A stretch of 64,000 nt of DNA, taken from the NCBI RefSeq assembly GCF_002571385.2, contig NW_019217784.1, positions 148,622 to 212,621 of the forward strand, given 5' to 3'. Position 1 is the stretch's first letter; each line of letters begins with the position of its first letter. The notes under the pieces were generated by a model. It had not been told where the DNA came from and did not search any database. It saw only the letters and a program-made list of their open reading frames with translations. The position numbers and the translations under genes are program-made. The stretch comes from Stylophora pistillata (lineage: Eukaryota). Below are positions 48,214-49,268 of this stretch, one piece after another.

Positions 48214-49268
48214 TTAATAATGTTGTCCAAAACTCTTGGACATGTTTAGTTGTTGGCCTTTGAACGTCAGAGGAGGTTTAATACGCCATCTGCCTTTCCG
48301 CTCGTTATAGAATTTTTCCAAAGCTTTCAAGGACCACGCCGGTCTTTTGGCCTTACACATTTCATTAACAAAATAACGGGCAAAGGAGATGGCTTCCGGT
48401 TGCGTCATCTTACCTCCTAGGAGATGTAGTGGCATCCACTCAGCAAAATAACTCAGCAGCCCCTGTGTTATTACTGTATTTCTTTCCGTTCTCAATTCAA
48501 TATTCTGACATTTTCTTTGCCTACAACATCACCGTCTCCGACCCAATGCTTGAGAGACGACTTGGCATTCATGTGTTAGGGACCGTAGCATAAATCAGAT
48601 GTGCCACTCAACCATCATATATGGATCGTTTCTACAAATTGCTGGGTCGATCTTAGATAAGCCCACGGCTGTTTTTTCCGGCGAGCTCAGAAACAGTTTT
48701 CTCTTAGCGTCGTTGCCTCTTGTCAATGTCTTATTGCGAATTGCCTTCCCTACAGCTCTAATCCATCAATTGAATTTGTCAGGTCTCATTCGAACATTGT
48801 CTTTACAAGTGTTTCCGTCTTTCAGTCTACATTGCCGGTCTATTCCTAGTTTTGTGAAAAGATTAAAACTCAGTCGATAGTCCCTGTCTTTTAACCGCTG
48901 AGCCACCGCTGTCCACCGCTGTCCACCAGTCCATAATCCTCTTCTGTCGCGTAAGCCTGTACCTTGTGAGGAACCCAGGAGATGATTGGAATCACATTGT
49001 GTTTCAGACAATGGTTGCCAACGATCGTCAAGTTGTTTAGAAACCATGTGAATTTGACGGCGGAGTGGTTGTAAGAGTACAAATCTGCCCTGCATCGAAG
49101 TCCTAAGTCACTAAAACCTTTATCGTAGACATCTTTAATGATCTTATCATGGTAAAATTTCAGTGGTTTCACTTTTTTGAACCAGTTTGTTGTAAACCCT
49201 GTATGAATCATCTTTTGGTACTCTGCTGGCGAAATCGGCTTATCTGTAGCTGAATTGACTCAGAACAT
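48214..49268 (-). pseudogene. Decayed intronless glycoside hydrolase family 5 (cellulase-like TIM barrel) gene of bacterial type
   Basis: Stitched across frames: KPISPAEYQKMIHTGFTTNWFK...DKGFSDLGLRCRADLY...NVIPIISW...WWTAVAQRLKDRDYRLSFNLFTKLG...KFN*WIRAVGKAIR...KRKLFLSSP...PYMMVEWH(x)YA...KHWVGDG...GLLSYFAEWMP...EAISFARYF...AWSLKALEKFYNERKGRW. Lesions include stops (48766-48768 and others), several frameshifts and a 10-bp tandem duplication at 48903-48922. Confidence 0.72.

What the first reader, a model, noticed from the sequence alone, without database searches (positions are those of the whole stretch)
48214..49268. Fossil of an intronless, bacterial-type GH5 glycoside hydrolase in an animal genome
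Seen: three broken ORFs join into one protein of about 340 aa with no introns and multiple lesions. The motifs PISPxEYQ, GFxxLxLR, IPIISW, WWTAVA, LSFNLFT(E>K), MMxEWHxYA and WMP follow the order I recall from a bacterial GH5 cellulase-like group. The predicted acid/base Glu position is Lys, while YFAEW keeps a Glu at the predicted nucleophile strand. Inference: this is a dead copy of a horizontally acquired carbohydrate-active family. Intact paralogues may act on symbiont or prey cell-wall glycans.
Basis: partly seen in the sequence, partly recalled or inferred. Interest (0 to 1): 0.7.

Follow-up and report, generated by a model that had tools for sequence, protein, structure and literature searches.

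The report
Dead coral gene, nucleophile-less GH5 family
This is a broken coral copy of a sugar-cutting enzyme gene that animals probably got from bacteria long ago, and its family is odd because nearly all members lack one of the two catalytic residues, while a few branches, including this one, regained it.

Summary
The fossil is real. Window 48201-49316 (-) is an intron-free pseudogene with 4 in-frame stops, at least 5 frameshift sites and acid/base Glu>Lys. It is 67% identical to intact P0044, which has a GH5 barrel fold. Relatives occur in stony and soft corals, anemones, Mytilus and an acoel. They form one clade nested among prokaryotic proteins; grouping with the cryptophyte copy is rejected. 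Transfer therefore looks ancient, and the pseudogene itself is ordinary.

The canonical nucleophile column is Ala in 291 of 307 rows, like engineered knock-out mutants, while the acid/base Glu is kept in 303 of 305. The window's Glu (YFAEW) is the exception. It is shared with its intact orthologues and was regained several times; all 7 animal-type Glu rows lack Asp294, which 111 of 120 Ala rows keep. A sulfatase gene is adjacent in 12 of 80 prokaryotic loci.

Best reading: secreted glycosidases for sulfated or 2-substituted glycans that work without an enzyme nucleophile. No activity is shown.

The parts
48201..49316 (-). Intron-free GH5-like pseudogene (remnant of signal-peptide region plus TIM barrel); true start codon not located
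   Evidence: Frameshift-aware alignments: P0044 217/323 identical, P0022 aligned 49316-48201; only copy in the window
49260..49262 (-). In-frame TGA two codons after the ATG at 49266-68
49101..49103 (-). Beta-2 Arg37 (P0044 numbering) changed to Gly; the only non-Arg in 301 rows
48906..48935 (-). Short deletion before WW followed by a 10-nt tandem duplication (48906-48925); frameshift site
   Evidence: sequence; alignment
48850..48852 (-). Acid/base Glu121 changed to Lys; Glu in 303 of 305 rows
48766..48768 (-). In-frame TGA at an Arg position of intact relatives
48576..48609 (-). Beta-6 EWH motif (Glu200, His202) followed by two stops and a frameshift
48439..48444 (-). Ala-Glu at the beta-7 nucleophile column (family norm is Gly-Ala); shared with intact orthologues P0044 and P0106
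48316..48327 (-). Beta-8 end: near-invariant Asn291 changed to Lys (decay); position 294 is Glu, not Asp, as in P0044 and P0106
48234..48497 (-). Three further frameshift sites near 48497, 48460 and 48234

Best explanation
The window holds a long-dead, intron-free copy of one branch of a multi-copy coral gene family. The family is an unclassified GH5-fold lineage closest to GH5_25 and GH5_4. It is widespread in bacteria and some archaea and most likely entered animals from a bacterium once, before or around the cnidarian-bilaterian split. Shown: pseudogene state, fold, animal clade, Ala at the nucleophile column, repeated return of Glu. Inferred: the Ala-type majority are secreted glycosidases. 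They keep the acid (Glu121), His202, Tyr204 and Arg37, but have opened a cavity at the -1 subsite: nucleophile to Ala, the Asn before the acid to Thr/Ile/Val, the beta-8 Trp to Asn, plus a new invariant Arg39. A group on the substrate (2-acetamido, 2-O-sulfate or carboxylate), or water activated by a relocated carboxylate (Asp294 or Glu200), would take the nucleophile's place, on a sulfated or otherwise anionic beta-glycan. Several duplicates, including the ancestor of this pseudogene, put Glu back and dropped Asp294, most likely returning to ordinary retaining GH5 chemistry on another substrate. In this coral that Glu-type copy then decayed.
For: Pseudogene; 37 of 132 conserved sites altered against 15 of 135 in P0044 and a median of 3.7% in Ala rows; a 300-codon GPCR frame in the same window is open. 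Fold: PF00150 on 3 of 3 paralogues; AF2 pLDDT 96.6; FnCel5A E 2e-15, TM 0.74; Z about 31, rmsd 2.7 over 296 residues to GH5_4/GH5_25 at 14-22% identity. Register: family GAW aligns with YFGAF of CtCel5E E314A (4u5i) and YIGAF of 3azr, where the wild types have GEF. Column counts: A 291, E 8, S 2, gap 6 of 307; E121 303/305; R39 298/301; H202 306/306; N291 297/300. A 199 of 209 without the pattern-seeded GTDB loci. Six of 8 exits from Ala go to Glu; one clade of all animal Glu rows is rejected, p 8e-173. Asp294: 111 of 120 Ala rows, 0 of 7 Glu rows. Sulfatase within 300 nt on the same strand in 12 of 80 loci, about five independent lineages; T9SS, CBM96, SLH and PEP-CTERM modules show surface or secreted location. 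Origin: 39-row animal-type clade 98/93, sister P0122 with bacterial Ig/cadherin/DUF4114 domains 97/100; animals plus Guillardia rejected, p 1e-8 (0.007 with its clade).
Against: No activity or substrate is shown, and active-site geometry could not be measured from the model. 65 of 80 loci have no sulfatase within the fetched flank, including 42 of 44 Bacillota and all Campylobacterota, Pseudomonadota and archaeal loci, and no genome-wide background rate was computed. Asp294 is not universal: 9 Ala-type animal rows lack it, and sulfatase-linked L049, L052, L059, L069 and L075 have no Asp there. The Asp294 link was found post hoc; with 5 independent pairs the sign test gives p 0.0625. P0019 joining the window's clade is not rejected (p 0.10), so animal Glu gains may be 4, not 5. 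One tree put P0122 inside the animal clade, and its organism is unknown. Glu200 also occurs in ordinary GH5_4 (9bmk VEFHYY), so it may be structural.
Confidence: 0.5

Rival explanations
1. Ala-type proteins are non-catalytic glycan-binding proteins (pseudoenzymes or lectins), and only the Glu-type copies are enzymes.
For: Glu>Ala at this position is the standard knock-out in GH5 (4u5i, 3azr). Non-catalytic GH5 groups exist (PMC3526467 passages). Many members are surface-anchored.
Against: The acid/base Glu, His, Tyr and Arg are near-invariant from archaea to corals. The one characterised non-catalytic GH5 named in PMC3526467 lost its acid/base instead. Members carry their own CBMs (CBM96, CBM4_9), which is more typical of enzymes (general knowledge).
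Confidence: 0.25
2. Ala-type proteins use different chemistry on the GH5 scaffold: beta-elimination on uronic-acid glycans, or an outside anion (sulfate, phosphate) bound by Arg39 in the vacated cavity.
For: Only Ala, Ser, Gly or Glu occur at the column, so a cavity is kept. Invariant Arg, His, Tyr and Asn resemble lyase residue sets (recalled). A chondroitinase-B-like gene lies in L001, and CBM96 sits on several members.
Against: His, Tyr and Arg37 are simply inherited GH5 residues. Secreted marine enzymes see little phosphate (inference). Easy reversion to Glu suggests hydrolase geometry is intact.
Confidence: 0.12
3. On origin: the family was inherited vertically from early eukaryotes with heavy loss, and bacterial look-alikes such as P0122 took it from animals.
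For: It is present in cnidarians, a mollusc, an acoel and a cryptophyte. P0122 nested among anthozoans in one tree. Most rows are unnamed.
Against: Eukaryote monophyly is rejected. Both deeper layers of the tree are mainly prokaryotic. 183 GTDB stretches encode relatives; the 80 kept span ten bacterial and two archaeal phyla.
Confidence: 0.15
4. The gene is intact and the lesions are assembly errors.
For: The window is a gapped draft (5 N runs).
Against: Four stops, a tandem duplication and substitutions at invariant sites (R37G, E121K, N291K) cannot come from indel noise. Other frames in the window are open.
Confidence: 0.03

Closest known systems
GH5_25 enzymes TmCel5A, FnCel5A, CtCel5E (subfamily of TmCel5A 3MMW from PMC3526467 Table 1; others recalled)
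   Same: Best profile and fold hits (E 1e-30; TM 0.74). Same barrel, beta-2 Arg, beta-4 acid/base Glu, beta-6 His-x-Tyr, and shared IRxTNPxRI segment in the bacterial members.
   Different: 14-22% identity. Nucleophile Glu>Ala, N-E>T/I/V-E, RxP>RxR, beta-8 Trp>Asn, beta-1 Asn replaced.
GH5_4 broad-specificity endoglucanases and xyloglucanases
   Same: Z 29-31; E-x-H on beta-6 also occurs in 9bmk.
   Different: Same active-site departures as above; no subfamily model or NCBIfam equivalog matches.
Engineered nucleophile mutants and glycosynthases (CtCel5E E314A 4u5i; TmCel5A 3azr)
   Same: The same Gly-Ala-aromatic motif at beta-7.
   Different: Here it is the natural state, conserved across domains of life.
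Non-catalytic GH5 groups (GH5_30, Xanthomonas GH5_1 offshoot, GH5_8-related lipoproteins, Rsi24C-GH5; PMC3526467 passages)
   Same: Incomplete catalytic pair on a GH5 fold.
   Different: Different taxa and architectures; small long-branch groups. This family keeps the acid/base and spans bacteria, archaea and animals.
Substrate-assisted TIM-barrel glycosidases (GH18, GH20, GH25, GH56, GH84, GH85; recalled)
   Same: One catalytic acid and no enzyme nucleophile: a model for how it may work.
   Different: Other clans; no DxE or DE motif here. No evidence yet for a 2-acetamido substrate.
Known animal GH5 (nematode cellulases, GH5_8 beetle, GH5_10 mollusc and arthropod mannanases, GH5_27; PMC3526467) and coral GH9 cellulases (PMC5710165)
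   Same: Animal carbohydrate-active genes, the GH5 ones attributed to horizontal transfer.
   Different: None is this lineage; the coral cellulases reported are GH9.

Membership tests
GH5 (clan GH-A) | (beta/alpha)8 barrel homologous to GH5 | tested here: met
   Intact orthologue P0044 model; PF00150 above cut-off on 3 of 3 paralogues
GH5 (clan GH-A) | Acid/base Glu at the end of beta-4 | tested here: met
   303 of 305 rows; Lys in the window copy only
GH5 (clan GH-A) | Nucleophile Glu at the end of beta-7 | tested here: not met
   Ala in 291 of 307 rows. Met only in 8 rows, including the window, P0044 and P0106
GH5 (clan GH-A) | Asn before the acid/base (N-E) | tested here: not met
   Thr 167, Ile 110, Val 21, Asn 3 of 306; also Thr or Val in the Glu-type rows
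GH5 (clan GH-A) | Beta-2 Arg and beta-6 His-x-Tyr | tested here: met
   R37 300/301, H202 306/306, Y204 293/306
GH5 (clan GH-A) | Beta-8 Trp at subsite -1 | tested here: not met
   Asn291 in 297 of 300 rows. The register comes; one search suggests another register two residues on, so this mapping is less sure
GH5 (clan GH-A) | Retaining hydrolysis of beta-glycosides | not testable with these tools
   Needs an enzyme assay and NMR
A numbered CAZy GH5 subfamily | Match to a subfamily model or clade | not testable with these tools
   No CAZy or dbCAN library on hand; no NCBIfam family for the domain in 6 members
Horizontally acquired animal gene | Animal copies nested among prokaryotic ones, eukaryote monophyly rejected | tested here: met
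   donor lineage not named
Horizontally acquired animal gene | Lies among host genes, so not a contaminant | tested here: met
   The window holds CTHRC1, GPCR and metallophosphoesterase exons; nearest relatives form a 100/99 clade with Stylophora-like and Oculina proteins
Processed (retro) pseudogene | Introns lost relative to an intron-bearing parent, poly-A tail, target-site duplication | not tested
   Gene structures of paralogues were not available; an intron-free state may be the family norm
Pseudogene | Several disabling lesions and loss of invariant residues | tested here: met

The most novel reading that the evidence does not exclude
An undescribed branch of clan GH-A, spread from archaea to corals and mussels, cleaves sulfated glycans with no enzyme nucleophile, using a substrate group or a carboxylate moved to the beta-8 loop. 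Evolution has switched the mechanism back to the classic two-Glu form at least four times in animals by a coupled Ala>Glu and Asp294-loss change. The window's fossil belongs to one such revertant branch.
Probability: 0.35. Interest if true: 0.82.

Novelty: new variant of a known kind. Interest (0 to 1): 0.6.

Why it matters
Clan GH-A is defined by two catalytic glutamates. A conserved, widespread lineage that keeps the acid but naturally carries the textbook knock-out at the nucleophile implies a different mechanism or a large unrecognised class of glycan binders. Databases mis-annotate it as cellulase. Natural Ala and Glu sister pairs (P0016/P0019, P0002/P0044, P0107/P0127) make the question directly testable. 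It also adds a probable ancient bacterial gene to the secreted toolkit of corals and mussels, and a candidate enzyme for marine sulfated polysaccharides. The broken copy itself matters little.

Tried and rejected
Pfam on the four fragments found nothing. PHROG and NCBIfam gave nothing useful for the family. No second copy lies in the window by tblastn of 120 relatives, blastn or profile. Rejected: the window's Glu as a chance decay mutation, since P0044 and P0106 share it in a 100-support clade. Rejected: a single origin of all Glu copies. Rejected: Kistimonas as sister of the animal clade (p 7e-5). Rejected: Asp294 as a family-wide catalytic residue. Glu200 as a substitute nucleophile is unsupported: P0197 (Glu-type) has Gln there, but so does its Ala-type sister P0168. 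A regex count of sulfatases was unreliable and was replaced by the BLAST cluster. The family is not a phage gene: 5 weak records in the phage set, mostly Salmonella/Escherichia-labelled. E. coli lacks it by blastn with the Salmonella gene. Organism names for unnamed hits could not be obtained, so the taxon range rests on the few named rows. Metagenome and viral contig collections stayed unchecked. Literature searches that found no description of this lineage.

Full report
Observation. On the - strand between about 49316 and 48201, pieces in all three frames spell one protein. The first piece, searched against longer proteins, hit 3 of 15 candidates, all carrying PF00150, among them Stylophora and Oculina proteins. 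A frameshift-aware alignment to the closest intact relative P0044 (unnamed, ENA) gives 217 of 323 identical with no intron-sized gap. It shows three stops and five frameshift sites; a fourth stop at 49260-62 shows against P0022. A 10-nt tandem duplication splits the WWTAVA motif. Residues near-invariant in the family are hit: R37G (1 of 301), E121K, N291K. The copy departs at 37 of 132 conserved sites, against 15 of 135 for P0044. It is a true pseudogene and the only copy in the window. The window is animal DNA, with CTHRC1, GPCR and metallophosphoesterase coding stretches. A stony coral host is inferred from the tree.

Fold. Three of 3 paralogues pass the Pfam cellulase cut-off. An AlphaFold2 model of P0044 built on 118 sequences has pLDDT 96.6. 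It matches GH5 barrels: FnCel5A E 2e-15, TM 0.74, and Z about 31, rmsd 2.7 over 296 residues, 14-22% identity, with GH5_4 and GH5_25-type chains tied.

The active site is not canonical. In the 120 first relatives the beta-7 nucleophile column was Ala 115, Glu 3, gap 2. In 209 domains kept from 266 proteins (those under 230 aligned residues were dropped) it was Ala 199, Glu 6, Ser 1, gap 3. In the final 307 rows it was Ala 291, Glu 8, Ser 2, gap 6. That set includes 80 GTDB loci, for which one of two seed patterns itself held GAWMP, so one search is the less biased count. The register is fixed by solved structures: the family's GAW aligns with YFGAF of CtCel5E E314A and YIGAF of 3azr, where wild-type entries have GEF, and with GEF of a canonical GH5 in locus L069. 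The acid/base Glu stays (303/305), as do R37, H202 and Y204. The Asn before the acid is Thr, Ile or Val; RxP is RxR (R39 298/301); and the beta-8 Trp position appears to be Asn (297/300). That the lost Asn and nucleophile both contact the 2-position of the -1 sugar is recalled knowledge. It is the basis for expecting a 2-substituted sugar.

The window's Glu is a reversion. The window copy, P0044 and P0106 form a clade with 100 support, all AEW, inside a scleractinian-type clade whose other members are GAW apart from P0019. On the 307-row tree the column changes 8 times, 6 to Glu and 2 to Ser. Under my simple neutral weights, Glu would take 4-8% of exits (p 1e-5 to 1e-7), and three other Ala-rich columns drift to Ser, Gly, Thr and others. 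With the trait columns removed (34 rows), AU tests reject one clade of all animal Glu rows (p 8e-173), of the three AEW lineages (0.002) and of the window clade with P0273 (0.033). They do not reject the window clade with P0019 (0.10). So there were at least four gains in animals, plus one in a bacterium. Among 128 animal-type rows with both residues, Asp294 is present in 111 of 120 Ala rows and 0 of 7 Glu rows. Allowing for the faster evolution of Glu rows and 135 sites scanned gives about 0.006. Five independent pairs go the same way 4.6 times on average and never the other way, but five pairs cannot reach significance (p 0.0625). It is a post hoc lead. Asp294 is absent from many bacterial members.

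Distribution and origin. Named animal rows are Stylophora, Pocillopora, Oculina, Actinia, Actinostola, Nematostella, Dendronephthya, Mytilus and Convolutriloba; Guillardia theta is the one named non-animal eukaryote (only the best 120 of 205 and of 143 hits were listed, and most rows are unnamed). In GTDB, 183 of 225 pattern matches encode a relative; the 80 kept span ten bacterial and two archaeal phyla. In the 66-row mixture-model tree, a 39-row animal-type clade (98/93) is sister to P0122 (97/100), a 56% identical protein with bacterial Ig, cadherin and DUF4114 domains. FastTree on 292 rows agreed; an LG tree on 112 rows nested P0122 among anthozoans. Guillardia groups elsewhere, with Kistimonas and a PEP-CTERM protein. 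On 41 rows, animals plus Guillardia is rejected (p 1e-8; 0.007 with its two neighbours), as is animals plus Kistimonas (7e-5). One ancient bacterium-to-animal transfer followed by loss and duplication is the simplest reading. Vertical descent from early eukaryotes is disfavoured, not excluded.

Substrate hints. A sulfatase cluster (27 ORFs) occurs in 15 of 80 loci and is directly adjacent on the same strand in 12: Opitutales, Marinifilaceae/Prolixibacteraceae (6 related loci), Melioribacteraceae, Calditrichia and Gaetbulibacter. Pfam on 58 chosen ORFs confirmed sulfatases and showed a radical-SAM maturase-type gene, GH10, canonical GH5, GH94, esterases and a chondroitinase-B-like gene nearby. 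Of 47 chosen proteins, many carry T9SS tails and six carry CBM96. The Salmonella STM3799 orthologue (Gly at the column) and an Enterobacter member lie beside or near yidF, an anaerobic sulfatase maturase gene, which may be positional chance. Against this, 65 of 80 loci show no sulfatase and no background rate was measured. Animal copies have signal-peptide-like N-termini by eye.

Mechanism. Shown: fold, residue pattern, reversions, neighbourhoods. Inferred: Ala-type proteins are secreted glycosidases with one catalytic acid, in which a substrate group, or water with a relocated carboxylate, replaces the nucleophile on an anionic beta-glycan (0.5). Rivals are pure binding (0.25) and lyase or anion-dependent chemistry (0.12). 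Glu-type copies probably regained retaining chemistry, though they did not regain the N-E motif or the Trp.

Literature. Ten searches returned no description of this lineage; I saw listings and abstract starts only. PMC3526467 (passages): the non-catalytic GH5 groups listed do not fit, 'cnidaria' and 'Nematostella' occur 0 times, and about 20% of GH5 were unclassified. PMC6011409 (passages): animal GH5 probably horizontal, with no residue analysis seen. PMC4878875 (passages and most of Table 1): no GH5 or cellulase named among 41 transfers, though three entries are 'predicted' or 'hypothetical'. PMC12198962 (passages): nothing specific. PMC5710165 (parts 1-2 of 4): coral cellulases are GH9. 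Supplements were not read and may list these sequences. CAZy could not be consulted and most subscription papers are outside the library, so novelty is provisional.

Verdict. The fossil is real but ordinary. Its family is a probably undescribed variant of GH5 with a natural nucleophile knock-out and repeated reversions. Interest 0.6.

Noticed in passing
window 50867-51517 (+): Open 216-codon frame 1.6 kb from the fossil with no Pfam, PHROG or convincing NCBIfam hit and no phage tblastn match. The atlas gives a weak DUF4313 lead (0.84, recognition 1831). Possibly a second gene of prokaryotic type.
   Followed up: partly
window 49781-50044: Inverted repeat with 129-nt arms, 94% complementary, 6-nt spacer; MITE-like, about 470 nt upstream of the fossil.
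   Followed up: no
window 699-7220 (-): Two tandem CTHRC1-like genes (collagen repeat plus CTHRC1_C domain).
   Followed up: no
L081:6884-7969 and L082:6953-8026: Salmonella STM3799 orthologue and Enterobacter 'cellulase family' gene belong to this family; L081 has Gly at the nucleophile column and Phe for Tyr204. They lie between the yidF region and emrD, and E. coli lacks the gene by blastn. No paper names STM3799.
   Followed up: partly
L002-L004: Kistimonas (invertebrate-associated, recalled) carry near-clade members beside an orphan TrmB-type regulator; L004 has ankyrin genes nearby. Not the sister of the animal clade.
   Followed up: partly
P0122: The closest non-animal-type relative (56% identity) has a bacterial, cyanobacteria-like (recalled) Ig/cadherin/DUF4114 architecture; donor-side or recipient-side is unresolved.
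   Followed up: partly
P0065, P0083, P0088, P0090; P0027, P0031: Several animal-type copies list the same longest-contig length (483,173 and 2,272,130 nt), which suggests tandem clusters.
   Followed up: no
P0044 position 270: Val>Ala in all 5 animal Glu lineages (Val in 79% of Ala rows), and position 292 changed in 4 of 5: further possible partners of the reversion.
   Followed up: partly
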